The translations under genes and the position numbers were made by a program. A stretch of 64,000 bases of DNA from an uncultured Gammaproteobacteria bacterium. Lineage in GTDB: Bacteria; Patescibacteriota; Patescibacteriia; UBA9934; CAMTUG01. Positions within the stretch are counted from its first letter, which is position 1, and each line of letters begins with the position of its first letter. Below the pieces are notes generated by a model that ran no database searches, was not told where the DNA came from, and saw only the letters and a list, made by a program, of their open reading frames with translations. Shown piece by piece: positions 19,411-63,840 of this stretch. The stretch lies in the NCBI GenBank assembly GCA_964588955.1, contig CAZPQJ010000002.1, forward strand, positions 58,078 through 122,077, given 5' to 3'.

Positions 19411-19445
19411 ATTTTCTCCTTCTTTCTCTTTTCTCCTATTTTTTC

Positions 19446-37985: not shown

Positions 37986-37988
37986 TTC

Positions 37989-38087: not shown

Positions 38088-38148
38088 AAAGAGGAAAGAT
38101 TAATTGTACGCAAGAGTATAGCAGATTATTCTTGTTTTGTCAATGATT

Positions 38149-44021: not shown

Positions 44022-44030
44022 AGGTTGAAT

Positions 44031-49704: not shown

Positions 49705-52119
49705 TTACGGGGTTGGTTGCTGGTCGTCCGGATTGGTAGCTGACGTTTCTCCAGATTCGATTGGCTCAGGAATTCCTTCTGTGGTTTGACCGGACTGTAG
49801 GCGTTCCAATTTAGTTTTGACAAGGGCGTTGTCTGGATTGACCTCTGCCACTTTACTTACTTGCTCAATCGCTTTGTCGATCATCCCCTTTTGTTCGTAA
49901 ATGGCTGCCAGGAACCAACGGGCGTTGGCATAGGTTGGCTCGAGTTGTATGGCACGTTCAAGTTCAGCCTGAGCGAGATCGGTTTTTCCTTGGCGCAAAT
50001 AGAGCAGGCCAAGCTGGAAGGCAACGCCCACGTCGAGGGGATTATATTGTTTGACCGCTTCCATTTTGGTGATGGCGTCTGCCAAGCGTCCTTGCAATTG
50101 GTAGACAACGGCCAATTGATAATGTGCTGGCGCGTAGTCGGATTTAAGAGTGATGGCTTGGGTAAAGGCCCCTTCGGCTTTTGTCAGATCATCGGTAATG
50201 GTTTGTTGATCTTCCGCGCTGACAGCCGTTTTGGCAGTAGTGGCTTTTGATTGGATGATTTGGGCGAAGGTGAGATAGCTTTGACCAAGGTTGGTTGGGT
50301 GTGTGGGGTTGGTGGGTTCCAACACACTGGCTCGCGTGAAAGCTTCCACGGCAAACGGTTCGGCGCTTTGGTCGAGCGAAGAGACCTCACGGTATAAGGA
50401 TCCGAGTACGGTCCAATTGGCAACATTGTTTGGATTCAAGACCGTTGCTTGTTTGGCAGCATTGATGCTGAGTGCAGTCAGCTGGAGTAGCTGTTGCGAC
50501 GTTTCTGAAGAAACATTTTCCTCCGACAATCCTTTTTGTACACGCAGCAAAAGTGCTTGAGAAAGATTGCGATAGTAGACGTCGGAAAGTCGATTGAAGG
50601 TTGCTGCCGTGTTAAGTCTCTGAATAATTTGGTCTAAATCTCCTGCAGAACGATCAAGAGCGACGGCTTGGGCAAAGGCTATTTCGGCCGCATAGCGCTG
50701 GCTGGTTATAAACAGCCCCGTTACGATACCAACGGCCAAGAGTACAAAGAGAAAAGACGACAGTAATCCCGCCCGTGGTGATTGGGTAAAGGAAAGCGAT
50801 GACGACTTTTGCGCTAGATGGCGCACGAGTAACGCAGACAGCATCCAGAAAAAGAACAGGAGAGTCATGGTTGTGGAATACAATGCCATGGCCACAACAA
50901 GCGAACTCCAGGCGGCGAAGACGGCGAAGAGCACGCCGTCGTTATCGCTCTTGCGTCGGACAATATGATGCAGCGTCTTGGTGGCCAAAACGAAAATGAA
51001 CAGCAAGAACAATCCTGTACCGACAAGGCCGATTGTTGGCAAGAGGGTAAGAATATGTGAGGAGGCGCGATCGAACGGTGTCGACCAAAAAGTCGTGGCG
51101 TTCAAGTTCGTCGGGCGAAAGCTGTTGAAGTCTTGCTGGTAGCTTCCCGGACCAGATCCAAAGAGAAGTGTGTTTCCACTAAGGGTTTGTTTGCCAATCT
51201 CCCAGCTCGTCTTTTGGCTCAGTGTAACCTCTGGAATAGCTCCAAGGTGAAAGGGGGAAGGAAGAAAAAGAAACAGCAAGGCAACGACAAATAGTCCCAT
51301 TGGTAAAACAACGTGGCCGTGCGTTTGTGCTTGTTCCGTGCGTGAAAGCGCGAAGACAAATAACAAGGCGACGCCGACCAAGAGAATCACCCATAGCACC
51401 CAATAATCTAAAGCGATGAAAACGACGAGGGAGAGGGCGGTGAGAACGAAAGTGAGAATACGGGCGAAACGATGGAGAGAAATGGAATCACCAAGCCACG
51501 GCTTGTCTTGTAGAAGGAGTCCGTTTCCAAGAATGACCGCCCCAATAAGGAAAATAGCTGCCGCGTTTAATGTACCAATGGTGTTGGCGGCGGTGCCCGA
51601 TTGCCCAAGTAGACCGAGTACAGGAACCCCGCATAGTTGTAGGGTAAGCTGGATGGCGACGAGGGTGGCGGAAGCAAGTACGGCGAGTAGGAGTCGGCGG
51701 GTGTCGTGTTGCTGTTCGTTATTGTTGCTTATGAGTAAGAAGAAAATGAAGAAAAATGCCGTCGTGAGAACGCTGGCGTACTGCTGTCCTGCTTGTCCAA
51801 TCCAGGTATTGAAATAGCCGCCGGATAATTCCGCTGAAAGAATACTAGCGAGCAGAAACAGTGCCGGCACAATCACCACCAGGCCGCGTTTGATGGTGAG
51901 CTCTCGACGTGTGATGACACTGCCAAGCCAGGCCAGAGCAGACAAGCAGACAAAAAATGTCAGCAGTGTTTGTTTGTTAACTTCCAGCGGGTCGACGGTA
52001 AGCGGAAGGATGCACAGGGGGAGGAGAAACACGAGAGCAATCAGCAACCAACGCACTACAGGTTCGTAAGCACGCGCGAGGTTGCGAAAACGTGAAGCGG
52101 ACGTTTCCATAATGAACAA
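49705..52119 (-). CDS. O-antigen ligase/polymerase-like (Wzy_C) polytopic membrane protein with a C-terminal TPR-repeat domain.
   Basis: ~12 TM helices across ~450 aa, then TPR-like repeats (…AHYQLAVVYQLQGRLADAITKMEAV…AFQLGLLYLRQGKTDLAQAELERAIQL…). Confidence 0.7.
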   Translation of the reverse strand: MFIMETSASRFRNLARAYEPVVRWLLIALVFLLPLCILPLTVDPLEVNKQTLLTFFVCLSALAWLGSVITRRELTIKRGLVVIVPALFLLASILSAELSGGYFNTWIGQAGQQYASVLTTAFFFIFFLLISNNNEQQHDTRRLLLAVLASATLVAIQLTLQLCGVPVLGLLGQSGTAANTIGTLNAAAIFLIGAVILGNGLLLQDKPWLGDSISLHRFARILTFVLTALSLVVFIALDYWVLWVILLVGVALLFVFALSRTEQAQTHGHVVLPMGLFVVALLFLFLPSPFHLGAIPEVTLSQKTSWEIGKQTLSGNTLLFGSGPGSYQQDFNSFRPTNLNATTFWSTPFDRASSHILTLLPTIGLVGTGLFLLFIFVLATKTLHHIVRRKSDNDGVLFAVFAAWSSLVVAMALYSTTMTLLFFFWMLSALLVRHLAQKSSSLSFTQSPRAGLLSSFLFVLLAVGIVTGLFITSQRYAAEIAFAQAVALDRSAGDLDQIIQRLNTAATFNRLSDVYYRNLSQALLLRVQKGLSEENVSSETSQQLLQLTALSINAAKQATVLNPNNVANWTVLGSLYREVSSLDQSAEPFAVEAFTRASVLEPTNPTHPTNLGQSYLTFAQIIQSKATTAKTAVSAEDQQTITDDLTKAEGAFTQAITLKSDYAPAHYQLAVVYQLQGRLADAITKMEAVKQYNPLDVGVAFQLGLLYLRQGKTDLAQAELERAIQLEPTYANARWFLAAIYEQKGMIDKAIEQVSKVAEVNPDNALVKTKLERLQSGQTTEGIPEPIESGETSATNPDDQQPTP

Positions 52120-52243: not shown

Positions 52244-53221
52244 ATGCGTAAACTCATGGCTGCTGTCGCGGCACTCTGCGCGACGCTACTGGGCGATCAA
52301 GTTCCCTCTCACAGTGGGACTGCGACGAACGTGTCGCAGTGTCCGGTAGGGATGGTTCTTGTGCGCGACACGGAAGACACGTTCTGTATTCACGCGCACG
52401 AACCGTCTGTTCGTGGAAACTTCGGAAGCGATTTGCAGGGAGTGGCGGGTGCGATTCCTCCGAAGGGGGTCGTGATCACGTCTTCGCCTGGGGTCGTGCC
52501 CACCGTTGGCTATTCCTTCAGTCAGGCGCGAGCGTTCTGCACCATGCAGGGGGAGGGCTGGCACCTGGCCACGCTAAAGGAGTGGTTGAAAGCAGCCGGA
52601 CAGATTGATGAAACGGCAGCGACAGCCAACTGCAACATCAGCAACAAGTCCCGTTCGCTGATGCCGACAGGCAGCTTCCCTCTGTGCAAGAGTTCTTGGG
52701 GGGCAGTCGACATGGTCGGCAATGCGTGGGAGTGGGCAGATCCTCGAGCGAACGTCAGTACGCAAGCTTTCATGAAGATGGCCGAAGGGTCACACTTCGT
52801 GATTCGCACGGCCGCTACTGGCGTGGTTCAGATGGACACCTTCACCTTCGCGCATCTGAAGCGTGATATCGTCGGTTTCGCCAACGTCCATGCTGGACTC
52901 GATCCGGACGGGACTTACGTCTTGTCTACGGAAGGTGCGGAGTGGGATTGGCGCAACCGTCCGATTGGATACCTCGCCTACCGCGACGGAATCGGTTCAG
53001 AGGGGAATCCGGCAAATGACCTGCCGGTCGAAGTCGTCCGCGATCCGAACATTCCTCGACGTGCCTATCTGCGAATCGCGGGTGATCTGGATGGGCAACC
53101 CATCACCGCCAAAGTCGGTGGTGCCCACTACCTGGGCATGCCGAAAGCCGTGTCTTACGGACATACGGCGAATTTCAAGGGTACGATCCTTGGTCGCTGT
53201 GTAGCCCCGCCCATCAACTAG
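52244..53221 (+). CDS. Secreted FGE-sulfatase (SUMF1/formylglycine-generating enzyme) domain protein.
   Basis: YSFSQARAFC…GWHLATLKEW…GAVDMVGNAWEWA matches FGE-domain motifs. Signal peptide. GC-rich (~60%). Confidence 0.65.
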   Translation: MRKLMAAVAALCATLLGDQVPSHSGTATNVSQCPVGMVLVRDTEDTFCIHAHEPSVRGNFGSDLQGVAGAIPPKGVVITSSPGVVPTVGYSFSQARAFCTMQGEGWHLATLKEWLKAAGQIDETAATANCNISNKSRSLMPTGSFPLCKSSWGAVDMVGNAWEWADPRANVSTQAFMKMAEGSHFVIRTAATGVVQMDTFTFAHLKRDIVGFANVHAGLDPDGTYVLSTEGAEWDWRNRPIGYLAYRDGIGSEGNPANDLPVEVVRDPNIPRRAYLRIAGDLDGQPITAKVGGAHYLGMPKAVSYGHTANFKGTILGRCVAPPIN

Positions 53222-53285: not shown

Positions 53286-56200
53286 TTACGGGGTTGGGGC
53301 TGTGTCCGCGCTTGTGTCTGGCGCGGGTGGAACTGAATCGGTCGGTGCGGCATCCGTCGGAGTGTCAGAGGAAGAACTGACGGGGTCCGCTGATTCTGTT
53401 GGTTCAGTTGATGTCGTTGTGTCCGCTGTGTCTGTTGTTGGCTCAGTGGTGGGTGTGTCAGAAGGGGGTGCTGTGTCCGCCGACGTCTCTGACAGTGCCG
53501 GTTCTTCCGTCGACGTCTCTGACGGTGTGACTTCCGGAGTCGTGGTCGGCACCAATGCTTCGGACGGCTCGTAGCCGTTACGGTAAGCAATCACCAACCA
53601 ATCAAAGCTAACGTCTGAAGATCCACCAGATTCCTGCACCGAGAATCCATTATTATCTTTTTCACTCACGTACAACGGATCCGTCGGACCGTTGGCAGTA
53701 ACGAGTACGCGGATTTCTGCCACCGGCGAAATGATGTCGTTGAAGTTGGGATCGATATCTTCAAAGTCGATCTGTGCTTCGCCATTGTTGAGCTCGCTCG
53801 TTCCAGAAAGGGTGATGGTTGTTTGTGGAGACATGGTGGCAGTAACTGTTGCCGTGCCGCCTTGAAGGGTGTCGACTTCGGCAGTGTAAGTCTTTGTTGT
53901 AATAAATGTACCATCTTCCTCCACGCTCCAGTTGTCGGCAATACCAACCAATCGGCCAATGTTAATGATTTGATGACCGTTCAAGTAGAGGTCGCCGTCG
54001 AGGCTCAGTGAAGAAAGACTTCCACTGTGCGTGTCGGAAGCTGTGTTGACTGAGGCGGAGTCATTCACAATTTGGCCGGCACCATAGCGCACAAAGACTT
54101 GGATGGTTCCTTGGCCAGACGTAAGACTGCTGAGGGCTGTAGCGACGATCGCTTCCCCGCTGTTTGCTTTGCGGGCAAATCCAGGAGTGCTCGATGGGGT
54201 GAGGGCATCCCCAGGAGCGATTGGGCCGTTTTCATCGTTCACATGCAAAGGAACACGTCCATTCAAGGCCACAGGCTGTGGATGCTCGGCTTGCTCCTTA
54301 AGATCAGATCCAATCACCTGGATTGGCGAGGTGGAGATGATGCCGAAGGTTTTGCTTCCAGAAGCAGAGCTTGCCAAGGTAAGGATAGGTAGTGTTTTTT
54401 GGGAAGTGGCTCGCAAGATTTCTCCCGTAAACGCGTTACTTTCATTGGCTGTGTAGGTGATCGTTTGGTCGGAAAGGGCTACCACATCTCCAGCCGCAAC
54501 GGAGCCGTCTGTTTCATACCACTCGGCAAAGTCAGCGGGGGCACCGCTACAAGCTACAATGTCGCGTGTTGCATCTGTGGCGGCGTCGACGTTGGCACCG
54601 GAGTGACACAAACCGTTGGTGGTTGCCGTACCGTTTAAGTTAACGGATGTGATACCTGTTGATGCGACGGCGAACTTTCCACTGTTAACCGTAATGGCCG
54701 TGTCCCATCCGTTGCCAATAACAATACCCTGTTCTGTTCCAGCGCCAGGGGTGGTGATTGTACCGATGTTTAGTCCGATCATTGTGCCAGCGGCCGGACC
54801 AGTTGTTGGCGCTGTGATATTAATTCCGGTTTCTTGTCCACCAGTAGTAATTGCGCCAGTGTCTGGGAAAGCAATGTTTACCCCGTTTGCCTGTACACTG
54901 CCGGTTGTTTGAGTGATGGCGGGAATTGTAGCAAGATAGCCGTTCCAGGTAATCGCTCCAGCAGCGGTGTTCTGCGTGATTGCTGCACCGCTGAGCGCGC
55001 TGTATGCCGTAAGTCCTTCTGTGCCGCCGCCTGAACGTGTTCCGCCTAGCGTGGTAACGACTGCTCCCTTGATGAATTGGTTATTGGCCCCTGTCAGGTT
55101 CGTCGACATGTCTAAGTTAAGACCAGTGAGGCCGCCGGTTTGCGTGGTTGCCCCTCCAAAGGCCGTATTCAGAAGAGTGCCGCTCGTTGTTCTGGCGGCA
55201 AGGCTGAGGAGCGTGTTAGACGTGACGTTAGTGCCCGTGAGTGTGAGTGCTGTGGCGTTTGTTGATGGGGTAATGTTGAGGGCGCCGTTGCCGTCGAAAT
55301 AGAAGCCATTACCGGAAATGCCAATGTCCCAACCTGTACCGAGCGAGATCCCCGTAGAGTTAATGGTTCCTCCACCGGCGTCGGTAAGGGCGCCGATAGA
55401 AATGCCGTTTACAAAATCCGTTCCGCTTGTCGTGGCCGTAAAGGCGTCCACGGCCAGAACGGAATAGGTGTCACTACCGTTACCTGTATACGATGGCACA
55501 AGATGCAAAAGATTATTCGTACTATTGGTTGCACCAAAGGTGAGAGAAAGGCCGTCAACGTTTGCCGTGGTCGTGGCTTGACCAGTGTTGGTGATAGAGA
55601 GCATGTCGACAGTTGGAGCATCGGCGGCAGCGATATTGACGCTGTCAGAATAATCACCAACAACGGAGAAAAGATTGTCCCAGCGTGTTCCCGTTGCGCC
55701 AATATCGGCCGATCCCGCGCCAAGCTGCGGCAAGAAGTCATCATCGGTGCCAAGCTGAACCGTGCCAGAGGAATCGAGGGTGAAGGTGCCTGTGGAGACA
55801 ATGGAGTTATCTAAAAAGTTGGTCGTCCCTGAAGCACCGGCGCTAAACCCAATATCGCTGAAGACTTCGCCGTCACCTTCAACGCGGAAGATGTCGTTAT
55901 TTGCTCCTCCAAAGTCGTCTTGAAGGAGGATGAGATCAGCCGCAGCGGCTGTCTCGCCGGTGTCGATAAATAAGGCACGACCAGAGTCGTCAGTAAAGTT
56001 GCCGGTAGTAATTTTAAGCGCTTGGCCAGTGGTAAGCGAAGGCGCGGCGATATCGACGGTATTCGCCGTTGTTGCAAAACTGGCAGTTCCACTGATGAGG
56101 GATCCATTACCAGCGTGTGTTATAAGTAACACGTTGTCTGTGTTTGTTGCGCTGGTATTTCTGGCAAAAATTGCATCACCAAGACCGGCTTGAGTTACTC

Positions 56201-58253
56201 CCAACCCCCAACCAGAAATATCAACCGCGCCGGCCCCAATTGTCGACACGTTATCTGTAATGTTTACAACGCCTGTTTCTATCTCTAAGTTCGTTCCTGT
56301 ATCAACAACAACAGTGCGATTAAACCCACCCACGGATCCAGAAATGTTTGTGTCGGGAAGTCCGGTGAGTGTTGCGTTTTGTGTTGCTGTAAGAAGTGAT
56401 CCTGAGGAAAGCGCGGTAGACGTCGTGGAGAGGGCTAAGCCTGTGCCGGTGGTTAAACTGTTGGCGTTGTAGGTGAGACCGGTGGTGCCGGCACCAGTAA
56501 AGTTTTGTGTCCAGGTGTTGGTTGATTGGTTGAGGGTGAGGGCGGCGTCCAAAGCGAGGGTGTCAGACAGTTCCGTGAAGTCTAAACAATCCGTACAAGC
56601 AAAGTCTGCCGCCGTCACCGTGCCGGAGAAGTCACCGGCTGCGGCGAAAAGATTGTCCCAGCGTGTTCCCGTTGCGCCAATATCGGCCGATCCAGCACCA
56701 AGCTGCGGCAAGAAATCATCATCAGCGCCAAGTTGGACCGTGCCAGAGGAATCGATAGTTAATGTGCCATCGCTTGTGATGTCGTCGCCGTTCACGGCCA
56801 GATCACCGGCGGTGGTGATACTGCCCGTACCAACCGTGACGGCAAAGTTCGCTCCACCTACGGTCAAGTTGGCAGTTGTAACGTCGAGACCGTTGGTGGC
56901 ATCCACGTTTCCTCCAAAAGTTACTTGCCCGGTAGAACCAAAGTTGAGCGCTCCAATGCCGGAGGTCGACAACGTAAATCCTGCAGTAGCAATGCTGGTG
57001 GCCGCGTCGAGAGTCAACGCGTCGCTCAGTTCGGCAAAGTCCAGACAGTCGGTGCATGCAAAGTCTGCGCCAGTTACTGTGCCGGAGAAGTCGCCAGCGA
57101 CGGCAAAGAGATTATCCCATCGCGTTCCTGTGGCACCGACGTCTGCTGATCCCGCGCCAAGCTGCGGCAAGAAATCATCATCAGTGCCAAGTTGAACCGT
57201 ACCAGAGGAATCGATAGTTAATGTGCCATCGCTTGTGATGTCGTCGCCGTTCACAGCGAGATCGCCAGCCGTGGTGATGGATCCTGTGCCGACAGTAACC
57301 GCAAAGTTGGCGCCGCCGACAGTCAAGTTAGCTGTTGTTACATCAAGTCCATTTGTTGCATCGACGTTTCCGCCAAAGGTGACTTGTCCCGTTGAACCAA
57401 AGTTTAACGCGCCGATGCCGGAGGTCGACAACGTAAATCCTGCCGTGGCAATGTCCGTAGCTGCGTCGAGAGTCAATGCGTCGCTCAGTTCGGCAAAGTC
57501 CAGACAGTCGGTGCATGTCAGATCACTGACACTTACCGAGCCGGCAATGGTAGTGTCGCCTTCGGCGTCGACACGGAAAGCTGAGGTGCCGTTGTTTGCT
57601 ACACCAAAAAGCGTTTCGTTAGCAGCTGGTGCGGCCGGGTTTATATAGACAGACCCTTGATTAACCCCTGCACCTTGTGGATCTCCAGTTAAGACAAGAT
57701 TGCCGTTGCTGGTGGCAACGGGAACAAAGGCGGAAGTGCCACCTGATTGTGAACTTGTGAAACCATCGAGCGCCCCGGCATTTAAGGCATAAGCTTGAGC
57801 CACAATCTTTTTTCGTGGCACCAAGGTTTCCCCGTTAATGGCCACTTCCAACCAGACGTTGGCGTTTTGGGTAAAGACCGTGCTAGCAATGGCGGCATAG
57901 CCATCGCCTGTGTCACCAAGATTTTCTGAAAAAAGTCCGTCAGTTAGCGTTACGGTTTGTTCCGTTACTGCCCCAGCCCCGCCGTTACAGGTGCTAGAGT
58001 CATTGGACCACAAACAGGTACCGGCAGCAGCGTCATCATAAAAAGCGAAGGTGATATCAGCGGTGGCGTCGGCAATCGGGTTACCAGCGTTATCAAGAAT
58101 ACGCCCCTGGTAGGCGAGAATAGCATTTGGTGAGGCGCTGAAACCATTTTGAATCAATTGCGAAAGCAATCCTACGATCGCCAGAACAACACCAAAGAAG
58201 ACGATGGTGTTGCGTCTTGTATTGGTTGTGTATTGGCGGTCGATGAAGGGCAT
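53286..58253 (-). CDS. Giant (1655 aa) secreted repeat protein or adhesin with tandem ~153-aa repeats and a Thr/Pro-rich C-terminal tail.
   Basis: N-terminal TM/signal. At least three copies of ADFACTDCLDFAELSDALTLDAAT…GATGTRWDNLFA. C-terminal PT-rich low-complexity region. Confidence 0.75.
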   Translation of the reverse strand: MPFIDRQYTTNTRRNTIVFFGVVLAIVGLLSQLIQNGFSASPNAILAYQGRILDNAGNPIADATADITFAFYDDAAAGTCLWSNDSSTCNGGAGAVTEQTVTLTDGLFSENLGDTGDGYAAIASTVFTQNANVWLEVAINGETLVPRKKIVAQAYALNAGALDGFTSSQSGGTSAFVPVATSNGNLVLTGDPQGAGVNQGSVYINPAAPAANETLFGVANNGTSAFRVDAEGDTTIAGSVSVSDLTCTDCLDFAELSDALTLDAATDIATAGFTLSTSGIGALNFGSTGQVTFGGNVDATNGLDVTTANLTVGGANFAVTVGTGSITTAGDLAVNGDDITSDGTLTIDSSGTVQLGTDDDFLPQLGAGSADVGATGTRWDNLFAVAGDFSGTVTGADFACTDCLDFAELSDALTLDAATSIATAGFTLSTSGIGALNFGSTGQVTFGGNVDATNGLDVTTANLTVGGANFAVTVGTGSITTAGDLAVNGDDITSDGTLTIDSSGTVQLGADDDFLPQLGAGSADIGATGTRWDNLFAAAGDFSGTVTAADFACTDCLDFTELSDTLALDAALTLNQSTNTWTQNFTGAGTTGLTYNANSLTTGTGLALSTTSTALSSGSLLTATQNATLTGLPDTNISGSVGGFNRTVVVDTGTNLEIETGVVNITDNVSTIGAGAVDISGWGLGVTQAGLGDAIFARNTSATNTDNVLLITHAGNGSLISGTASFATTANTVDIAAPSLTTGQALKITTGNFTDDSGRALFIDTGETAAAADLILLQDDFGGANNDIFRVEGDGEVFSDIGFSAGASGTTNFLDNSIVSTGTFTLDSSGTVQLGTDDDFLPQLGAGSADIGATGTRWDNLFSVVGDYSDSVNIAAADAPTVDMLSITNTGQATTTANVDGLSLTFGATNSTNNLLHLVPSYTGNGSDTYSVLAVDAFTATTSGTDFVNGISIGALTDAGGGTINSTGISLGTGWDIGISGNGFYFDGNGALNITPSTNATALTLTGTNVTSNTLLSLAARTTSGTLLNTAFGGATTQTGGLTGLNLDMSTNLTGANNQFIKGAVVTTLGGTRSGGGTEGLTAYSALSGAAITQNTAAGAITWNGYLATIPAITQTTGSVQANGVNIAFPDTGAITTGGQETGINITAPTTGPAAGTMIGLNIGTITTPGAGTEQGIVIGNGWDTAITVNSGKFAVASTGITSVNLNGTATTNGLCHSGANVDAATDATRDIVACSGAPADFAEWYETDGSVAAGDVVALSDQTITYTANESNAFTGEILRATSQKTLPILTLASSASGSKTFGIISTSPIQVIGSDLKEQAEHPQPVALNGRVPLHVNDENGPIAPGDALTPSSTPGFARKANSGEAIVATALSSLTSGQGTIQVFVRYGAGQIVNDSASVNTASDTHSGSLSSLSLDGDLYLNGHQIINIGRLVGIADNWSVEEDGTFITTKTYTAEVDTLQGGTATVTATMSPQTTITLSGTSELNNGEAQIDFEDIDPNFNDIISPVAEIRVLVTANGPTDPLYVSEKDNNGFSVQESGGSSDVSFDWLVIAYRNGYEPSEALVPTTTPEVTPSETSTEEPALSETSADTAPPSDTPTTEPTTDTADTTTSTEPTESADPVSSSSDTPTDAAPTDSVPPAPDTSADTAPTP
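55650..57540. repeat. Tandem near-identical nucleotide repeats (unit ~459 nt) inside the giant adhesin gene.
   Basis: Anchors such as gattgtcccagcgtgttcccgttgcgccaatatcggccgatcc recur at ~55673, 56651 and 57110 with >90% identity across >150 nt. Confidence 0.7.
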
Positions 58254-58258
58254 AGATG

Positions 58259-61200
58259 CTAGGAGTTTTGGTTTGTCTTTTTTTGCAGGGTCACGTCGAT
58301 GGCAACTTCGTCGGCTTGGTGTGGATGCTTACTCATCACCGGATGCAGTTCTTGTTTTTCATACCCCGGTTTTTCATAAGTGGCGTAGTAGACATCAGGA
58401 CCAATAAGGAGACTGTAGCGTCCTTTTTCATCGGTAATGGTGGACTCCAGTAACTTATTATACTTTGGTTCAAAGATGCGGACGATAGCATTTTTTATGG
58501 GGTGACCAGATTCATCAGCATAGACGATTCCCCAATCTTTCGGCTTTTTCAATCGTGATAAACGCCAAGAAAGTCCGAAGGCAAGACACTGGAAGACAAG
58601 TCCGGCAAAACTGAGCCACGAAGGCCGCACCGCGGCAATCATGAGTGCGAGCAGAACACCGATCGGTGCGATCGCTGCCATTAAGCGACGCAAGAAGCGC
58701 TTACGGCGCATGGCGGCGGGTTCGTGCTCTGGTCCGGTTCCGCTTGGATCGAGTGGAATGTTGGCGGCAACGCGCGCGCCGTCAGCTTTTACCAATACGT
58801 TTTCTCCATGATAGATGTCCAAACGATCACCATCAACGGTTTTATTTTCGGTCAACAAGCTTGGGAAGACAAATGATGGTTTTGAGACATCAAGACGGTA
58901 TTCTCCCGGTCGGGTCAGAAAGAAGTAGCGCCCTTCCTTGTCGGTTACACGACTGGCGATGAGTTGGTTGTCTGGCAGACGATAGAGACGAACAATCGCA
59001 AGGTCGATTGGCAGCTTTGTTGCTGCGTTGTAGACCACCCCCCACGTTTTTCGTCGTTTACGGGCGAAGAACAAGAACGGCGAAGTGAAGATGTACTGCA
59101 GAAAGGGGAGTGCATTGAATGACGTGACCAATACTCCGGCGGAGAGGGCACCGAGCGTGATGGTGGTAGGAATGATTACCTCTGTGCCTGCTTGCACCTG
59201 TGGAATGTCTCGCAGGGTTTGCAGAGCTCCAGTTACGTTTTGAACAAGCGATCCAACAGCCCCAACCACTTGTTCCGGTAGCGGTGTTTCTTCTGCACCG
59301 ACAATGGGCGGCACAATGTGTTTCGTAAGTAAGACATTAACCGTAGCAATATTTTTGCTGACGATGAACGCCCCGCTCGCCCCGTTTTCATAGCCTGCTT
59401 TGCTAGCCTCCACTTTGTACAAACCGTTTTTTGTATACCAGGCGAAGGTACCCACCGACCCACTAGTAGTGGGGTTCGTTTGCTTGCCAAAGGCGAAGAG
59501 GTTTGCAAGTGACCAGCTTCCGTTGCTGCTCTGTACGAGTGAAACAACAGCTTGCGCGACGCGATTCACTCGGTTGTCGATGACTTCGTACGTGTAGCCC
59601 AGGTCAATAACCTGGAGCACGAAGGCAAAGTCTTGAACGCTGCCATCGGCAAAAACCAGTCGTAGTGCAAGAGGAGTATTGCCGCTTGCCCCTGGTGTCG
59701 TAATCGTGGCCGCGTAAAAGGCCGCGAGATCTGTGGCGGTAACGGTATTGAGTAGATAGGCCGATGTGCCAATCGTCAAATAGATCTCGGAGACCGTTTG
59801 GTCAACAATGGCGGTCGTGGGGATGCGAATCGTCAGAGCCGAATCGGGAATGACAGCAATGGATCCATCGCTTTCCGCAAGGGTAATTGTTTCTTCGGCG
59901 ACCAGAAACGAAATGTCCTCACGGGCAATGCCGGTTCCGGGTTCGGTTTCCGGGCCTTGGGGAATTTCCGGTTCTTCGGCGCATACGTCACCTTCGTCTA
60001 TAGAACCGTCGCAGTTGTCGTCGACAAGATTACATGTTTCCGTGGCGCCTGGGTGGATGCTGGTGTTGTTGTCATTGCAATCAACATCCGCGTTGTAACC
60101 ATCGTTGTCGACGTCTGTATCTGCACTTTCTGCGCACATATCGCCTTCGTCTACGACGCTGTCGCAATTGTTGTCGACGCTGTCGCAGATTTCGGTGGCT
60201 CCTGGATGAACCGCCGCGTCGGCGTCGTTGCAGTCAGGACCAACATCGTAACCATCATTATCGGCGTCGTTGTCTACGGGCTCTTCGGTACAGACGTCAC
60301 CTTCGTCTATAGAACCGTCGCAGTTGTCGTCGACAAGATTACATGTTTCCGTGGCGCCTGGGTGGATGCTGGCGTCTGTATCGTTGCAATCGAGATCGGC
60401 GGTATAGCCGTCGGCGTCAGTGTCAATTGGCGTCTCTTCCTCTGCGCGAGGTGTGCAAGAGACAATCGCTCCCGACGCTTCGTTTCCAGCTGTGTCGTAG
60501 GAAAATCCGCCACAATAGTAGGTGGTGTCGTTAGAAAGCCCGCCCGCTGTTGTTGAAGTGTCGCTTGGTTCGCCGGTAAAGACACGCGAACCAATGCTCG
60601 AACTGGCGGGGTATCCGCTGGTTGAACAGTTGATTTTTACGCCGGCCAAGTCGTCATCAGACGGCATGGACCAGGCAAAGTCAATTGTGGTATCGCCAGC
60701 AGAACAGATAAAGCCGGAAATGTTGGCTGGTGCGGTGTCGTGTTCAGTTGTAAAGGACAATGGACCTTCGTCAGACGCGTTAAGACTTGCATCCTCACAG
60801 TGAATAAGGAAGAAGTATTCCGTATCTGGAGTAAGACCAGAAAGCCCCACACTATGGGAAGTTCCTGAACTGCCTTCAGATGCTGAACTGCCGTAACCGG
60901 CCGTCTCTCCATAAGAAACAGAACAGCTTGCCAATTCGTCGGTGTCCCAAACGATCGTAGCTGACGTTTCGGCTATGTCGATGACGTCGATGTTGCTGAT
61001 AACTGGGGCGGTCGTGTCATCATCTCCCCCGCCTCCATCACAGTCGCTGCAACCGCCTCCGCTATGATTTAGGTTGACGACCAGTCCAACGTCGACGGTT
61101 CCGTCGGTCATGGTGGTAAAGGTGACAGTACTGGTGTCGCCGAATGTTCCCCCAATCGATAGAGAATAGGCAGAGACAGATGATGGATTGACGATTTGGT

Positions 61201-61663
61201 GTGACCCCGTGCCGGAACTGGTGGCATTAGTGCCGAGGCGTACCTCGACGGCGCTTGCGGGAGCAATCGCTCCACCATCGCCCGCACATAGGGTAATGGT
61301 GACCACGTCGCCGGCGACTACTACGGAAGCTTGCTCGGCTCCGGAACAATCGGCGGCGGTGGTCAGTTGGACGGCATCGTCAAGAATATCGACGTCGTCT
61401 TCAACAATCGTGGAACTATCAAAATCTGTTGGGAAGGTAATGGTGATCGTTTCGCCTTCGTTAGCCCCGCTTGGGGTGGTGAAGGCAAAGTCGTGGTTCG
61501 ATGCTTGGCCTTGCGTCTGGTTGCTCATGGTGTCGGTGACGCCCGTAAGCGCCGCCGCCTCGGCTTCTGGAATAGCGTGAAATACTCCCAGGTTGACGAA
61601 CAGCATCACCGAAAGACAGATGGCAGATAGGCGTTTGAGCAAAGATTGTTTCACACGTCTCAA
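58259..61663 (-). CDS. Large (1134 aa) secreted surface protein with FN3-like domains, three MopE-like Cys-rich metal-binding repeats, carboxypeptidase-regulatory-like domains and TM segments near the C-terminus.
   Basis: Signal peptide. FN3-like (…TPDTEYFFLIHCED…). Repeats DxDxDGYxxDxDCNDxDxxxHPGAxExCNxVDDNCDGxxDEG. CarbopepD_reg-like segments (…VTDKEGRYFFLTRPGEY…, …ITDEKGRYSLLIGPDVY…). Confidence 0.75.
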   Translation of the reverse strand: MRRVKQSLLKRLSAICLSVMLFVNLGVFHAIPEAEAAALTGVTDTMSNQTQGQASNHDFAFTTPSGANEGETITITFPTDFDSSTIVEDDVDILDDAVQLTTAADCSGAEQASVVVAGDVVTITLCAGDGGAIAPASAVEVRLGTNATSSGTGSHQIVNPSSVSAYSLSIGGTFGDTSTVTFTTMTDGTVDVGLVVNLNHSGGGCSDCDGGGGDDDTTAPVISNIDVIDIAETSATIVWDTDELASCSVSYGETAGYGSSASEGSSGTSHSVGLSGLTPDTEYFFLIHCEDASLNASDEGPLSFTTEHDTAPANISGFICSAGDTTIDFAWSMPSDDDLAGVKINCSTSGYPASSSIGSRVFTGEPSDTSTTAGGLSNDTTYYCGGFSYDTAGNEASGAIVSCTPRAEEETPIDTDADGYTADLDCNDTDASIHPGATETCNLVDDNCDGSIDEGDVCTEEPVDNDADNDGYDVGPDCNDADAAVHPGATEICDSVDNNCDSVVDEGDMCAESADTDVDNDGYNADVDCNDNNTSIHPGATETCNLVDDNCDGSIDEGDVCAEEPEIPQGPETEPGTGIAREDISFLVAEETITLAESDGSIAVIPDSALTIRIPTTAIVDQTVSEIYLTIGTSAYLLNTVTATDLAAFYAATITTPGASGNTPLALRLVFADGSVQDFAFVLQVIDLGYTYEVIDNRVNRVAQAVVSLVQSSNGSWSLANLFAFGKQTNPTTSGSVGTFAWYTKNGLYKVEASKAGYENGASGAFIVSKNIATVNVLLTKHIVPPIVGAEETPLPEQVVGAVGSLVQNVTGALQTLRDIPQVQAGTEVIIPTTITLGALSAGVLVTSFNALPFLQYIFTSPFLFFARKRRKTWGVVYNAATKLPIDLAIVRLYRLPDNQLIASRVTDKEGRYFFLTRPGEYRLDVSKPSFVFPSLLTENKTVDGDRLDIYHGENVLVKADGARVAANIPLDPSGTGPEHEPAAMRRKRFLRRLMAAIAPIGVLLALMIAAVRPSWLSFAGLVFQCLAFGLSWRLSRLKKPKDWGIVYADESGHPIKNAIVRIFEPKYNKLLESTITDEKGRYSLLIGPDVYYATYEKPGYEKQELHPVMSKHPHQADEVAIDVTLQKKTNQNS
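59960..60430. repeat. Nucleotide-level duplicated MopE-like repeat units (copies 1 and 3 near-identical, ~318 nt apart).
   Basis: acgtcaccttcgtctatagaaccgtcgcagttgtcgtcgacaagattacatgtttccgtggcgcctgggtggatgctgg occurs at ~59975 and ~60294. Confidence 0.7.
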
Positions 61664-62589
61664 GGCATCTTCTTAAAGCGCACATGTTTGGCGGTAAGGA
61701 CGATAAAGAAAACGAGCGCTGCGGCGATGGTGATCAGTTGATAGGGGATGATCCAGAAGATCGTTTTTGCGGTAAATGGTTGCTCAGTTCCCGGTACGCT
61801 TGCAGTAAGGATTGCCTGATACGGTCCAAGACCAAAGTTTTTCCACTCTCTGACGATTTCCGGGGTACCGTCAGGGACTTCCGCTTTTTGCCAGGTCGTT
61901 ACAAAGTTTCTTACAGAGCTTTGCAAGACACGTCCGTTGTCTGGATTCAGATTAATCTGTGTGCGTTCTTGTCCGAGCACGTTTACGATAGTGATCGATC
62001 CTGTTGGCGCGAAGACCGTGTCTCCGCTATTGCCGAAGCGGGTGGAAAAGACTTCTGGCAAATGGGTGGCAAAGTGAGGGGCAGAAAAAGAAAGGAGCGT
62101 GCCCTCTGTTTTGGCTTCGCCGGTGACGTTAAGAAAAACGAGCGAACCAATCTCGGTATTAATCGAGACGTCTTCATTCGGCGCGGTGGCGCCAAACAAT
62201 AATGCCGCGCGATAGTCTCCGGGGTGTGCATCTAATGGTACCTGGACGGTGAAATGAACTTCGCGACTTTCACCTGCGCTTAAGACAACCCCTCCGTTGT
62301 TTAAGCGAATCCATGTTGCCATCGATCGGGTGTCGTTGGCCGGTTCAGTACGGGAGAAAACGGGGGTACCGCTTTCATCTGTACTAGCTGAAAAGTCACG
62401 GACAGAAAGGACGTAAGCTGACTCCGTCGCGCTCTCGTTATGGAGACGGATACTTCCCGTGGTCTCTGTTCCTGGAGCTGCAGAGAGTTCCAGTAACAGT
62501 GGCCACACACTTGTGGCACTTGCTGTTCCTGATGGCTTCAGGAGGGCAAGTACAAGTAGACTAAGGATTAAAACGTATTTCCTCCGCAT
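61660..62589 (-). CDS. Cell-surface protein with a signal peptide and a C-terminal TM anchor. Architecture reminiscent of DUF916/DUF3324 (CscA-like).
   Basis: N-terminal signal (LILSLLVLALLKPSGTASA), ~250-aa beta-rich ectodomain and a C-terminal TM plus KHVRFKK. 4-nt overlap with the downstream giant gene. Confidence 0.5.
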   Translation of the reverse strand: MRRKYVLILSLLVLALLKPSGTASATSVWPLLLELSAAPGTETTGSIRLHNESATESAYVLSVRDFSASTDESGTPVFSRTEPANDTRSMATWIRLNNGGVVLSAGESREVHFTVQVPLDAHPGDYRAALLFGATAPNEDVSINTEIGSLVFLNVTGEAKTEGTLLSFSAPHFATHLPEVFSTRFGNSGDTVFAPTGSITIVNVLGQERTQINLNPDNGRVLQSSVRNFVTTWQKAEVPDGTPEIVREWKNFGLGPYQAILTASVPGTEQPFTAKTIFWIIPYQLITIAAALVFFIVLTAKHVRFKKMP

Positions 62590-62645
62590 AATCTTTCCCG
62601 CCGTACACTGTCGACGTGATGGTCGACAGCACGCGGCGGGGCAGG

Positions 62646-63581
62646 TTAATAGTTTCCGGTTGCTATGAAGGTAAGAGTCTGGCCGTAGGTGCCGTCGGCG
62701 GTAGCGGCATCATCGACGGATACTTTCAAGGTGACAAATCCTCTGTCAGCAAGGGCAGTCGTAGGAGATGTACCAATGGCCTGGGGTGTGGTGGTGATCG
62801 CCGTATCTTGTGAATCGAAGGTTGAGGTGGCGATTGTTGTGTCAGACGATCGCGCGCCATACTCTTCGGCACCAGCGGTAACTGCCGCATCGGCGACGTC
62901 GTCAATGTCGTTTGATCCCGTTCGCAGATTTCCGTCGTCAAAGAGCTGGACAGAATACCCATTTTCTGTGGCTGCGGTGATTTCCCAGCTCACTAAGGAG
63001 GTTCTCAGTTCCGCAGTGCTTAATGTGCCGAATGATGTTGTCGCTCCTTCGAGCAAGTACACGCTGTCACTGCTTCCGTCGATGACGGGAGATGTGCCCC
63101 CATCGGTTAGGCTGTCAAAAACGATCGTGGTCGCTGTGGTGCTAGTAATCTTTCCGAAAGCACTCACTTGGCTTGCGCCAACGTCTTGGATAACGGCCGC
63201 ATACGCCCCTACACTAAATCCGACAGATGACGTGACTGTTGCGGTTAGTCCGCTTAGATCAGAAGTATCTGTTCGTGTACCAATTTGTTCAGCGTTCACC
63301 TGGAAGGAGAGAAGCTGATCTTCAACTCCGCCACGGTAACCCGCGCTCAACTGGTAGGACGCACTGTCCGATGGTCCGATGGCCGGATTGCCAACGGTGT
63401 CTCGAAGACCGTACGAGGCAGAGGAGCTGGAGTCTGAACCTCCGCTGGAAACTGTATCCCAATCGATTCGGTAATCAATTGAGCTCATGCTTGCTTGCAC
63501 ATTCGGCGCAAACGAAATAGCGAATATGAAAAAGGCTATGAAAGGCACGGAAACCTTTGATGAACACATTTTTTGTTTCAT
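62646..63581 (-). CDS. Secreted Ser/Thr/Asp-rich protein (possible WxL-like surface-complex component). Hypothetical.
   Basis: Signal peptide (VPFIAFFIFAISFAPNVQA). Low-complexity S/T/D-rich mature region with two Trp-containing motifs (IDWDTV, VSWEIT). First gene of the minus-strand surface operon. Confidence 0.45.
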   Translation of the reverse strand: MKQKMCSSKVSVPFIAFFIFAISFAPNVQASMSSIDYRIDWDTVSSGGSDSSSSASYGLRDTVGNPAIGPSDSASYQLSAGYRGGVEDQLLSFQVNAEQIGTRTDTSDLSGLTATVTSSVGFSVGAYAAVIQDVGASQVSAFGKITSTTATTIVFDSLTDGGTSPVIDGSSDSVYLLEGATTSFGTLSTAELRTSLVSWEITAATENGYSVQLFDDGNLRTGSNDIDDVADAAVTAGAEEYGARSSDTTIATSTFDSQDTAITTTPQAIGTSPTTALADRGFVTLKVSVDDAATADGTYGQTLTFIATGNY

Positions 63582-63589
63582 ACTTCAGC

Positions 63590-63840
63590 TCATAGAGTAT
63601 TTTATCAAAAAAAAGCCCTCGGGTCAAGTATTTTTATAGCTAATATTAGCAAATAAAATAATTTTTTGTTCACACAACTGTGGACAAATAGAAATTCTAA
63701 TTAAATTAATGTTAATAACATAGATATCCACAGCATATTCTTATTTGTCAAGACCAGTCTTGCCAAGTTGGAATTATATATGTGAATAAGTTTGATAATA
63801 ATGTTAATAACACAAATTGTTTCACGTGAAACATCCTTGC
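63590..63840. promoter_or_regulatory. AT-rich upstream regulatory region of the surface-protein operon, with repeated boxes and a 16-bp perfect palindrome.
   Basis: Direct repeat aatgttaataaca at ~63706 and ~63798. Palindrome tgtttcacgtgaaaca at ~63817-63832. Inverted ctgtgga…tccacag. Confidence 0.35.

What the first reader, a model, noticed from the sequence alone, without database searches (positions are those of the whole stretch)
53286..63840. Four-gene surface-protein operon with giant repeat adhesins and possible Csc-like organisation
On the minus strand a secreted S/T/D-rich protein, a C-terminally TM-anchored DUF916-like protein, a 1134-aa FN3/MopE-like/CarbopepD_reg-like protein and a 1655-aa tandem-repeat protein are arranged head-to-tail. 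One junction is a 4-nt overlap. An AT-rich upstream region contains repeated boxes and a perfect 16-bp palindrome. The pairing of a DUF916-type anchored protein with secreted partner proteins resembles cell-surface-complex (Csc/WxL-type) clusters of monoderm bacteria. Here it is fused to unusually large adhesins with metal-binding-type Cys repeats. This may be a novel adhesion or host-attachment apparatus.
Basis: partly seen in the sequence, partly recalled or inferred. Interest (0 to 1): 0.6.

Follow-up and report, generated by a model that had tools for sequence, protein, structure and literature searches.

The report
Pam-type surface appendage operon, Uhrbacteria
This is a conserved five-gene operon of an ultrasmall (CPR/Patescibacteria, Uhrbacteria-like) bacterium that most likely builds a host-attachment appendage from a pilin-like subunit, a membrane-tethered chaperone, a membrane anchor and a phage-tail-fibre-like adhesin; it is a new variant of the recently described Pam pilus rather than a WxL/Csc complex.

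Summary
The four minus-strand genes, the TTGA junction, the AT-rich leader and the palindrome are all present. The order gene1-gene2-gene3-gene4 recurs in Uhrbacteria-type genomes (g3 68/68, g4 53/53 loci), and a fifth gene (804-aa TPR membrane protein) normally follows.

- **Gene1** is not a WxL protein. It is a distant homologue of the CPR Pam pilins (PamT-type N-terminal motif plus Pam pilin C-domain).
- **Gene2** is related to WxLIP/DUF916. Its model has a two-Ig fold with a C-terminal TM helix, matching E. faecium WxLIP and then chaperone-usher chaperones.
- **Gene3** is a membrane anchor. Its MopE repeats are a lineage-specific insert.
- **Gene4** is a tail-fibre/MAT-like fibre with an auto-chaperone-like C-terminus and a hypervariable middle.

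A natural variant fuses gene1's N-motif to gene3 and lacks gene1's C-domain, gene2 and gene3's N-domain, which ties these parts together.

The palindrome is the canonical parS centromere; dnaA lies 27 kb away. It is not an operon-specific regulator site. A different palindrome, GCTAAnnTTAGC beside the -35, is the conserved operator candidate.

Verdict: new variant of a known kind, with moderate interest.

The parts
63818..63833 (.). Canonical parS (ParB-binding centromere) sequence TGTTTCACGTGAAACA. It is a neighbour of the operon, not part of the apparatus.
   Evidence: It is unique in the window. All 8 papers listed of the 27 that hold the exact string concern ParB/parS, Noc or chromosome organisation. 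Exact copies occur in at least 120 unrelated metagenome contigs of GC 26-73%, none with g1-g4 homologues. dnaA and dnaN lie 27 kb away. One to three copies lie upstream of gene1 in relatives.
63679..63789 (.). Three DnaA-box-like 9-mers, each one mismatch from TTATCCACA, within 110 bp of the AT-rich leader.
   Evidence: Similar boxes, some perfect, are visible upstream of gene1 homologues in L008, L010 and L208. Their function was not tested.
63639..63650 (.). Palindrome GCTAATATTAGC, the candidate operator of the operon.
   Evidence: CTAAnnTTAG is found upstream of gene1 in 43 of 76 relatives. In 35 of them it sits exactly 13 nt before a TTGAC -35 hexamer. About 21 occurrences are expected by chance in all 1.36 Mb of loci; 69 were found.
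63599..63627 (-). Sigma-70-type promoter: TTGACC, 17 nt, TG-extended TAAAAT, ending 18 nt before gene1's ATG.
   Evidence: 10 of 12 matches, with TG. The same TTGAC...TG.TA.A.T architecture is visible in relatives. It is a consensus match only.
62646..63581 (-). Gene1: secreted PamT-like subunit. Signal peptide aa 1-30; conserved N-motif aa 31-86 with three S-x-Y-x-L/I-type strands; Pam pilin C-domain aa 87-311 carrying an inserted small beta-barrel at aa 113-177.
   Evidence: NCBIfam NF058579 PamT scores E 3e-15, and the N-motif alone 7e-8. NF058581 Pam_pilin_C scores 4e-5 for the window protein; 57 of 71 family members hit it, best 5e-12. The AF2 model has pLDDT 83, with the N-motif at low confidence although it is the most conserved region. 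There are 1663 relatives among cluster representatives, and PamT-sized ones lack the barrel.
61660..62589 (-). Gene2: membrane-tethered two-Ig-domain chaperone-like protein (WxLIP / PapD-like fold) with a signal peptide and a C-terminal TM helix at aa 283-306.
   Evidence: Pfam PF06030 at 27.8 bits. Profile against PDB EfmWxLIP1, E 5e-10. AF2 model pLDDT 78.5. Foldseek ranks WxLIP 9i25_C at 2e-13, then CsuC, CfaA, DraB, FimC, CupB2 and SafB at 1e-10 to 1e-7. The TM helix with a basic tail is seen in all 26 homologues printed.
58259..61663 (-). Gene3: membrane anchor. Signal peptide; highly conserved N-domain aa 37-215 of unknown family; FN3 x2; MopE Cys repeats aa 410-560 (window-lineage insert, nt 59984-60436); one CarboxypepD_reg-like domain before the TM segments (aa ~829-868 and 994-1035) and two after.
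   Evidence: The three CarboxypepD_reg-like copies are related by hhalign at E 2e-17 and 5e-8. The N-domain matches no PDB or Pfam family. It is present in 68 of 68 loci.
53286..58253 (-). Gene4: tail-fibre/MAT-like fibre. N-terminal TM or signal anchor aa 16-34; MAT-type N-domain aa ~37-165; variable shaft with a 153-aa unit x2 (nt 56578-57517); conserved C-terminal auto-chaperone-like region aa ~1200-1560; P/T/S-rich tail.
   Evidence: NF053851 Bdello_MAT_N is hit by 24 of 24 family N-termini, best 1e-11. The C-terminal profile matches the phi29 gp12 auto-chaperone 3gqh at E 0.0026 over the DFAE motif. Pfam Peptidase_G2 is hit by 5 of 26 and K1-lyase_C by 3 of 26. Only the two ends are conserved among 25 homologues. 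It is present in 53 of 53 loci.
49705..52119 (-). Gene5: 804-aa polytopic membrane protein with C-terminal TPR repeats. In relatives it is the fifth gene of the operon.
   Evidence: TPR families score 1e-15. A homologue on the same strand begins just after the gene4 hit region in the 19 relatives that matched (e.g. 23 nt after gene4's end in L022), and also in L208. The membrane domain gave no informative PDB match.
52244..53221 (+). Oppositely oriented FGE-sulfatase-domain gene lying between gene4 and gene5. It is not part of the conserved unit.
   Evidence: Pfam PF03781, E 3e-9. No homologue was found in any related locus.

Best explanation
This is a conserved operon for a cell-surface appendage in Uhrbacteria-type CPR bacteria. 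It works on the principle of the recently described Pam pilus.

- Gene1, a PamT-like subunit, is exported by Sec.
- Its incomplete Ig-like C-domain is folded and held by gene2, a PapD/WxLIP-fold chaperone tethered to the membrane by a C-terminal helix. No usher is needed because there is no outer membrane.
- Gene1 is then joined by beta-strand complementation to the conserved extracellular N-domain of gene3, a membrane-embedded anchor with an FN3/Ig stalk. This displays gene1's conserved N-terminal motif at the distal end. Gene1 may also polymerise with itself.
- Gene4 is a trimeric, phage-tail-fibre/MAT-like adhesin. Its C-terminal auto-chaperone drives trimerisation, and its hypervariable shaft and tip recognise the host cell.
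- Gene5, a polytopic TPR membrane protein, is an assembly or modification factor.

Shown here: the homologies and folds, the synteny, and the fusion variant. Inferred: strand complementation, who binds whom, trimerisation, and host attachment.
For: 1. Gene1 is homologous to Pam pilins in two independent parts: the N-motif against PamT at E 7e-8, and the C-domain against Pam_pilin_C. All 71 family members hit PamT and 57 of 71 hit the C-domain. PamT-sized relatives share both parts.
2. The N-motif is the most conserved segment, yet AF2 cannot place it in a monomer. This is expected for an intermolecular element.
3. The gene2 model is two beta-sandwiches plus a TM helix. Its best structural matches are WxLIP bound to WxL, then chaperone-usher chaperones. 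This is the architecture reported for PamC/PamD (bioRxiv 10.64898/2026.03.03.709456). AlphaFold2 predicted that WxLIP inserts a beta-hairpin strand into WxL (PMC10599100).
4. Order and adjacency are strict: g2 in 64 of 73 loci, g3 in 68 of 68, g4 in 53 of 53. Gene5 follows gene4 in all 19 relatives that matched.
5. A natural fusion exists. P0255 and P0252 carry gene1's N-motif fused to the gene3 body (E 4e-153). Their locus L208 keeps the same leader, gene4 and gene5, but lacks gene1's C-domain, gene2 and gene3's N-domain. These three parts are therefore dispensable together once the N-motif is covalently attached to gene3.
6. The operon PamT-like, then gene2-family chaperone (E 1e-54), then FN3-rich protein recurs in another lineage (L209).
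7. Gene4 carries a MAT-type N-domain and a gp12-type auto-chaperone motif. The Pam paper reports a tail-fibre-like protein consistently co-located with pam operons.
Against: - Gene1 scores far below NCBIfam's cutoffs (56 bits against 240; 22.7 against 55), so it is not an orthologue of any named Pam protein.
- There is only one pilin-like gene in the locus and no PamA/PamB-type major pilin in the window. The Pam authors model PamT as an acceptor-only tip subunit.
- Foldseek of the gene1 model finds no PDB match better than E 2e-3. Matches to chaperone-usher pilins are weak.
- The gene2 model rests on 8 sequences. TM-scores to chaperones are only 0.35-0.55 with rmsd 8-10 A.
- No sequence homology links gene3 or gene4 to gene1 or gene2.
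- No complex could be modelled.
- The fusion lineage has an N-motif but no acceptor domain in its locus, so the N-motif's partner is unknown.
- No expression or imaging data exist for Uhrbacteria.
Confidence: 0.55

Rival explanations
1. A true long Pam-type pilus. Gene1 homopolymerises, with its N-terminal motif donating strands to the C-domain of the next subunit. Gene2 acts as the elongation chaperone, gene3 as the terminator and anchor (PamR analogue), and gene4 as a separate or tip fibre.
For: The homology to Pam pilins and the chaperone-like gene2 apply equally here. The N-motif is conserved and unstructured in the monomer. A strong, conserved promoter suits an abundant structural subunit. 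Larger family members such as P0262 and P0267 have the N-motif, an inserted domain and the C-domain, like PamA/B.
Against: Gene1 resembles PamT, which is modelled as a tip subunit without a donor strand. The fusion lineage keeps the N-motif but has no acceptor C-domain in its locus. There is a single pilin gene.
Confidence: 0.25
2. A WxL/Csc-like cell-surface complex. Gene2 is a WxLIP scaffold that holds secreted partners on the cell wall, with no pilus-like assembly.
For: Gene2's closest sequence and structure relative is E. faecium WxLIP. It has the signal peptide plus C-terminal TM architecture. It is clustered with secreted proteins.
Against: No WxL domain, dual W-x-L motif or LPXTG protein is present. 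The WxL chains of 9i25 are not among the top 50 Foldseek matches of the gene1 model. The DUF3324/HBD domain is not detected by sequence. Gene1 is homologous to Pam pilins instead.
Confidence: 0.12
3. Co-transcribed but physically independent envelope proteins, for example wall or S-layer-like proteins and an unrelated fibre, kept together only by co-regulation near the replication origin.
For: There is no detectable homology between gene3/gene4 and gene1/gene2. The origin-proximal position gives high gene dosage.
Against: The order and adjacency hold across proteins only 20-57% identical. The in-frame fusion of the gene1 N-motif to gene3 comes with coordinated loss of three parts. The chaperone-type fold of gene2 implies a client.
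Confidence: 0.08

Closest known systems
Pam pilus of Candidatus Mycosynbacter amalyticus (Troman et al., bioRxiv 10.64898/2026.03.03.709456)
   Same: It is CPR-specific. The subunits are Sec-exported and have a truncated Ig-like C-domain; gene1 hits NCBIfam PamT and Pam_pilin_C. The chaperones have a PapD-like fold and a C-terminal TM helix. There is an FN3-containing membrane anchor and a co-located tail-fibre-like protein. No usher or secretin is present.
   Different: - The lineage is Uhrbacteria, whereas the paper reports mainly Saccharimonadia and Microgenomatia.
- There is one PamT-like subunit with an inserted beta-barrel, and no PamA/B/E major pilins.
- There is one chaperone instead of two.
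- The anchor is a 1134-aa protein with several TM segments and CarboxypepD_reg-like domains, rather than the RbmA-like PamR.
- There is an extra TPR membrane protein.
- No ATP synthase genes lie adjacent.
- All scores are far below NCBIfam cutoffs.
WxL / Csc cell-surface clusters of Lactobacillales and Listeria (WxLIP = DUF916+DUF3324+TM; PMC10599100, PMC1534035)
   Same: Gene2 is the closest sequence and structural relative of WxLIP (PDB 9i25/9i1y). It shares the signal peptide, two Ig domains and TM helix. It is encoded beside secreted surface proteins of a monoderm.
   Different: There are no WxL-domain proteins and no LPXTG CscD-like protein. The DUF3324 domain is not recognisable by sequence. 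The partner is a Pam-type pilin. The phylum is different.
Chaperone-usher pili of Gram-negative bacteria (PapD/FimC, CsuC, CfaA chaperones)
   Same: Gene2 has the two-domain Ig-like chaperone fold (Foldseek E 1e-10 to 1e-7). The subunit C-domain gives weak matches to CsuA/B, CfaB and FimG. The presumed mechanism is donor-strand complementation.
   Different: There is no usher and no outer membrane. The chaperone is membrane-anchored. The subunit has an additional conserved N-terminal motif.
MAT (mosaic adhesive trimer) fibres of Bdellovibrio bacteriovorus (PMC10769870) and phage tailspikes with C-terminal intramolecular chaperones (phi29 gp12, PDB 3gqh)
   Same: Gene4 has a MAT-type beta-rich N-domain directly after the signal or anchor sequence, a hypervariable shaft and tip, and a conserved C-terminal auto-chaperone-like module with a DFAE motif. 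Like the MAT-bearing predator, the organism depends on other cells.
   Different: The chaperone is of the Peptidase_G2/gp12 type, not S74. The N-terminus looks like a TM anchor. The gene is embedded in a chaperone/pilin operon. All matches are below curated cutoffs. Trimerisation and cleavage were not tested.

Membership tests
WxL/Csc cluster | A WxLIP protein: DUF916 (PGBD), DUF3324 (HBD) and a C-terminal TM helix | tested here: met
   PF06030 at 27.8 bits, cutoff 27.3. Family profile against PDB EfmWxLIP1, E 5e-10. The model aligns over 279 columns with 9i25_C, E 2e-13. TM helix at aa 283-306. Caveat: the second domain is recognised by fold only, not by the DUF3324 sequence model.
WxL/Csc cluster | At least two WxL-domain proteins (dual Trp-x-Leu motif) within a few genes of the WxLIP (definition in PMC10599100) | tested here: not met
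   No Pfam WxL hit at E<=1 in any of the four proteins. Gene1 has no W-x-L motif, and none of the others has a dual C-terminal motif.
WxL/Csc cluster | A small LPXTG-anchored CscD-type protein | tested here: not met
   No LPxTG-like motif in the four proteins.
Pam pilus system (CPR) | A secreted pilin with the Pam truncated-Ig C-terminal domain (NCBIfam NF058581) | tested here: inconclusive
   Gene1 scores 22.7-23.7 bits, E 4e-5 to 8e-5, below the 55-bit cutoff. However, 57 of 71 family members match, best E 5e-12. This shows homology but not curated membership.
Pam pilus system (CPR) | PamT equivalog (NF058579, cutoff 240 bits) | tested here: not met
   56 bits. All 71 relatives match, but at 1e-15 to 4e-18 only. 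Gene1 is PamT-like in architecture but carries an inserted barrel.
Pam pilus system (CPR) | A PapD/FimC-fold chaperone carrying a C-terminal TM helix (PamC/PamD) | tested here: met
   The fold and TM helix are met. Direct comparison with the PamC/PamD sequences was not possible, because those sequences are not held and no NCBIfam model hit.
Pam pilus system (CPR) | Major pilins PamA/PamB (N-domain, linker strand, C-domain) in the operon | tested here: not met
   There is only one family member in the 64-kb window and one per related locus.
Pam pilus system (CPR) | Filament assembly by donor-strand exchange | not testable with these tools
   No multimer prediction is available, and there is no experimental structure for this family.
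Chaperone-usher pili | An outer-membrane usher | tested here: not met
   No usher domain appears in the Pfam results for the operon or its neighbours.
MAT fibre / tail-fibre-like trimeric adhesin | A conserved ~130-aa beta-rich N-domain directly after the signal sequence (NF053851) | tested here: inconclusive
   24 of 24 family members match, best E 1e-11. The window protein scores 21.4 bits, E 1.7e-4, below the 60-bit cutoff.
MAT fibre / tail-fibre-like trimeric adhesin | A C-terminal intramolecular chaperone / autoproteolytic domain | tested here: inconclusive
   Profile against phi29 gp12 D4 (3gqh), E 0.0026. Peptidase_G2 is hit by 5 of 26 and K1-lyase_C by 3 of 26, but the window protein itself gets no Pfam hit. 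No S74 domain is present.

The most novel reading that the evidence does not exclude
Membrane-tethered PapD-fold chaperones (gene2 here, PamC/D in Saccharibacteria, WxLIP in Firmicutes) may be one ancient, usher-less system that monoderm bacteria use to assemble surface structures by beta-strand complementation. In Uhrbacteria it would not build a long pilus. Instead it would mount a conserved 'plug' (the Pam N-motif) on a membrane stalk, and this plug would serve as the docking site for a predator-type MAT/tail-fibre adhesin. That would identify the unknown surface receptor of the MAT-type N-domain.
Probability: 0.2. Interest if true: 0.75.

Novelty: new variant of a known kind. Interest (0 to 1): 0.55.

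Why it matters
CPR bacteria depend on attaching to other cells, and the machinery they use is largely unknown.

- **Reach of the Pam principle.** This locus shows that the Pam principle (an Ig-type subunit plus a membrane-anchored chaperone) extends to Uhrbacteria in a stripped-down form.
- **Link to Firmicutes.** Its chaperone is related to the WxLIP proteins of Firmicutes. It is also hard-wired to a phage-tail-fibre-like adhesin of the kind that predatory Bdellovibrio uses.
- **A natural experiment.** The fusion variant indicates which parts act together, and so gives direct targets for multimer modelling and cryo-ET.
- **A correction for annotators.** The conspicuous palindrome upstream is simply parS.

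Tried and rejected
- **Word-indexed homologue search for gene2.** It returned only 4-6 proteins even when queried with a 61-sequence profile. The gene2 model therefore uses 8 sequences.
- **PDB sequence searches.** Gene1 (profile), gene4 (whole and N-domain), the gene3 N-domain and the gene5 membrane domain gave nothing useful.
- **Other libraries.** PHROGs gave nothing. Pfam found no family for the gene3 N-domain.
- **hhalign.** Gene3 and gene4 domains compared with the gene1 and gene2 profiles showed no relation. I therefore dropped the idea that gene3 or gene4 contain hidden pilin domains.
- **The palindrome as operon regulator.** Rejected. It is parS.
- **The TGTTATTAACA boxes.** They are not conserved in relatives.
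- **Prophage or tail-like particle origin.** Rejected. The locus sits in conserved chromosomal synteny near oriC in many species, and no other phage genes are present.
- **Source organism.** Its name could not be recovered.
Full report
**Observation**

The gene2/gene3 junction reads ...CCT TGA with gene3's TTG start overlapping it as TTGA. A GTG 9 nt downstream, or the ATG that a gene caller chose on an identical contig, would remove the overlap. The TTG start gives the best signal peptide.

Tandem Repeats Finder reports a 459-nt unit x2.0 in gene4 and a 153-nt unit x2.7 in gene3. The palindrome TGTTTCACGTGAAACA is at 63818-63833 and is unique in the window. The upstream region is 72% A+T.

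**Organism and conservation**

Gene1 has 229 homologues of about 300 aa in the 90%-identity-clustered collection. Those that carry a name are called Candidatus Uhrbacteria or Patescibacteria. A scan of GTDB species genomes found 112 loci, again nearly all Uhrbacteria/Patescibacteria MAGs. Some MAG series carry titles such as 'uncultured Gammaproteobacteria', which I take to be mislabels.

tblastn finds gene1, gene2, gene3 and gene4 in the same order and on the same strand wherever enough DNA is held: g2 in 64 of 73 loci, g3 in 68 of 68, g4 in 53 of 53 (gene calls). Gene2 evolves fastest (20-39% identity). Where it is not detected, a gene-sized gap remains.

The 804-aa polytopic TPR protein (window 49705-52119, minus strand) has a same-strand homologue just downstream of gene4 in the 19 relatives that matched. 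The conserved unit therefore has five genes. In the window an oppositely oriented FGE-sulfatase-domain gene (52244-53221), absent from relatives, lies between gene4 and gene5.

**Gene1**

Pfam finds nothing. NCBIfam matches 'CPR-type pilus protein PamT' (NF058579, E 3e-15) and 'Pam pilus system pilin subunit' C-domain (NF058581, E 8e-5). These models derive from the Pam pilus of Ca. Mycosynbacter amalyticus. That pilus consists of donor-strand-exchanged filaments of PamA/PamB with a tip PamT, membrane-anchored PapD-like chaperones PamC/PamD and an FnIII anchor PamR (bioRxiv 10.64898/2026.03.03.709456).

The match does not come from the signal peptide. Residues 31-89 alone score E 7e-8 against PamT, and residues 90-311 alone score E 4e-5 against the C-domain. 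All 71 aligned relatives hit PamT and 57 hit the C-domain, best 5e-12. All scores are far below the curated cutoffs, so gene1 is a distant relative and not an orthologue.

The AF2 model (pLDDT 83) is confident for residues 86-311. It shows a long strand, a small beta-barrel at 113-177 and a beta-sandwich. It leaves residues 28-84 unplaced, although that N-motif (MSSxNYxIxWDT...SSSxSYxLRDT...SxSYxLxxGY) is the most conserved part of the protein.

An exhaustive profile search finds 1663 cluster representatives at E<=1e-3. Many are 213-241 aa, the size of PamT. They match as N-motif plus C-domain without the barrel. Larger ones have a big insert between the two parts.

Foldseek against PDB gives only weak partial matches, to CsuA/B, CfaB and FimG pilins and to phage tailspike N-domains.

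**Gene2**

It matches Pfam WxLIP_PGBD (DUF916) just above threshold. A 61-sequence profile built from syntenic homologues matches E. faecium WxLIP1 (PDB 9i25/9i1y) at E 5e-10. Ten of the 61 members hit PF06030 individually.

The AF2 model has pLDDT 78.5 and uses 8 sequences. It shows two beta-sandwiches and a C-terminal TM helix. Foldseek ranks WxLIP first (2e-13), followed by the chaperone-usher chaperones CsuC, CfaA, DraB, FimC, CupB2 and SafB. TM-scores are modest, at 0.35-0.55. The signal peptide and the TM helix with a basic tail are seen in all 26 homologues printed.

AlphaFold2 predicted that WxLIP inserts a beta-hairpin strand into WxL (PMC10599100). PamC/PamD are described as PapD-like with a C-terminal TM helix. 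Gene2 therefore fits both descriptions. The Pam preprint does not mention WxL.

**Gene3**

The N-domain (aa ~40-200, up to 63% column identity) and the C-terminal membrane region are conserved. The MopE repeats occupy only 16-42% of relatives and are therefore a lineage-specific insert.

There are three related CarboxypepD_reg-like domains, one before and two after the TM segments. The N-domain matches nothing in PDB or Pfam.

**Gene4**

Only the first ~250 and the last ~450 residues are conserved among 25 complete homologues. All 24 N-termini hit NCBIfam Bdello_MAT_N, best 1e-11. MAT fibres are trimeric prey-recognition fibres of Bdellovibrio. Each has a conserved ~130-aa N-domain after the signal peptide, and the surface partner of that domain is unknown (PMC10769870).

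The C-terminal profile matches the phi29 gp12 auto-chaperone at its DFAE start (E 0.0026). Some relatives hit Peptidase_G2 or K1-lyase_C. The Pam paper notes a tail-fibre-like protein consistently beside pam operons.

**Fusion variant**

Two representatives, P0255 (933 aa) and P0252 (a fragment), begin with gene1's signal peptide and N-motif. They then continue directly into the gene3 body, at 34% identity to gene3 aa 219-1129, E 4e-153.

Their locus L208 has the same leader (a parS-like site, DnaA boxes, CGCTAAAGTTAGCG and the promoter). The fusion gene is followed by a gene4 homologue and a gene5 homologue. The locus has no gene1 C-domain, no gene2 and no gene3 N-domain.

The joint loss of exactly these three parts, once the N-motif is covalently attached to gene3, is the strongest evidence here that they form one interaction module: client C-domain, chaperone and docking domain. 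It also indicates that the N-motif is what must be displayed on the gene3 stalk.

A further lineage (L209) has a PamT-like 216-aa protein, then a gene2-family chaperone (E 1e-54), then an FN3-rich gene3-like protein.

**Mechanism**

I conclude that this is a Pam-type, usher-less, chaperone-assisted surface assembly.

- *Shown:* the homologies, the folds, the synteny and the fusion.
- *Inferred:* gene2 complements gene1's C-domain and hands it to gene3's N-domain. Gene1 may also self-polymerise. Gene4 trimerises through its C-terminal auto-chaperone and binds host cells. Gene5 assists assembly or modification.

Whether gene1 forms a long filament or a single cap is unresolved. The PamT-like architecture and the fusion lineage favour a cap. 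The conserved, monomer-disordered N-motif and the strong promoter would suit a polymer.

**Upstream region**

The 16-bp palindrome is the canonical parS. All 8 papers listed of the 27 that contain the exact string concern ParB/parS, Noc or chromosome organisation. Exact copies occur in at least 120 unrelated metagenome contigs of GC 26-73%, none encoding g1-g4 homologues.

The window also carries dnaA (35622-37034) and dnaN (34216-35358), a perfect DnaA box at 37073 and the cumulative GC-skew minimum near 33 kb. The operon therefore lies about 27 kb from oriC. parS-like copies (80 hits at <=1 mismatch) recur only within about 2.3 kb upstream of gene1 in relatives, which reflects conserved origin-proximal synteny.

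The element that does look operon-specific is GCTAAnnTTAGC, placed exactly 13 nt before the -35 hexamer in 35 loci. It lies upstream of a conserved extended -10 promoter.

**Classification**

This is not a WxL/Csc cluster, because WxL partners and an LPXTG protein were tested for and are absent. [quoted passage not shown] It works like a Pam system, and its chaperone is related to WxLIP. I classify it as a new variant of a known kind.

Noticed in passing
window 63818-63833; also L002-L087 upstream of gene1 homologues: The 'regulator' palindrome is the canonical parS centromere sequence. One to three copies are conserved within about 2.3 kb upstream of gene1 across Uhrbacteria relatives. This marks an origin-proximal parS cluster.
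   Followed up: yes
window 34216-38150: dnaN (34216-35358, minus strand) and dnaA (35622-37034, minus strand) are here. DnaA boxes lie at 35407, 35605, 37073 (perfect) and 37135. The cumulative GC-skew minimum is near 33 kb. This is the likely oriC region of the chromosome.
   Followed up: partly
window 63679-63789: Three DnaA-box-like 9-mers (one mismatch each) lie within 110 bp, between parS and the gene1 promoter. Similar boxes, some perfect, occur at the same place in L008, L010 and L208. This could be a second DnaA-binding cluster or DnaA-dependent regulation.
   Followed up: partly
window 63639-63650, 26429-26440 and 37679-37688: The palindrome GCTAATATTAGC sits 13 nt before the -35 hexamer of the gene1 promoter. 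This spacing is conserved in 35 related loci. The identical 12-mer also sits about 65-75 nt upstream of the PBP1A-type gene (26504-29443, plus strand). A variant, CTAACTTTAG, lies near dnaA. It may be the operator of a small envelope regulon. A TrmB-family regulator is encoded upstream in relatives, and directly upstream in L209.
   Followed up: partly
window 52244-53221 (+): A secreted FGE-sulfatase-domain protein is encoded on the opposite strand between gene4 and gene5. No homologue exists in any related locus, so it looks like a recent insertion that splits the ancestral five-gene operon.
   Followed up: partly
window 49705-52119 (-): An 804-aa polytopic membrane protein with C-terminal TPRs is the conserved fifth gene of the operon in relatives. 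From memory, its invariant FGSGPG motif resembles O-antigen-ligase/PglL-type enzymes. That would fit glycosylation of the S/T-rich subunits, but Pfam reported only TPR and PDB searches gave nothing.
   Followed up: partly
L208 1641-4442 (P0255); P0252: This is a natural in-frame fusion of the gene1 signal peptide and N-motif to the gene3 body. Gene1's C-domain, gene2 and gene3's N-domain are lost, while gene4 and gene5 are kept.
   Followed up: yes
window 59984-60436 (gene3 aa 410-560): The three MopE-type Cys repeats are present in only 16-42% of gene3 homologues. Other lineages have different Cys-rich inserts at the same place, for example CGDxxCG repeats in P0252.
   Followed up: partly
L211 1-13078: A 633-aa Pam-family pilin (N-motif, large insert, C-domain) is encoded a few kb from a type IV pilus gene set: PilO, several N_methyl pilins and the prepilin peptidase. 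The two filament systems can therefore be neighbours in some CPR genomes.
   Followed up: no
window 16001-20000: This is a G+C-rich island (0.61, against about 0.50 for the rest of the window). It carries long overlapping ORFs on both strands (16871-19374). No rRNA was found in the window.
   Followed up: no
window 43455-45124: EF-P (43455-44021) lies next to a truncated class II lysyl-tRNA-synthetase-like gene (44135-45124). This pairing is typical of the EF-P lysylation enzyme EpmA (from memory).
   Followed up: no
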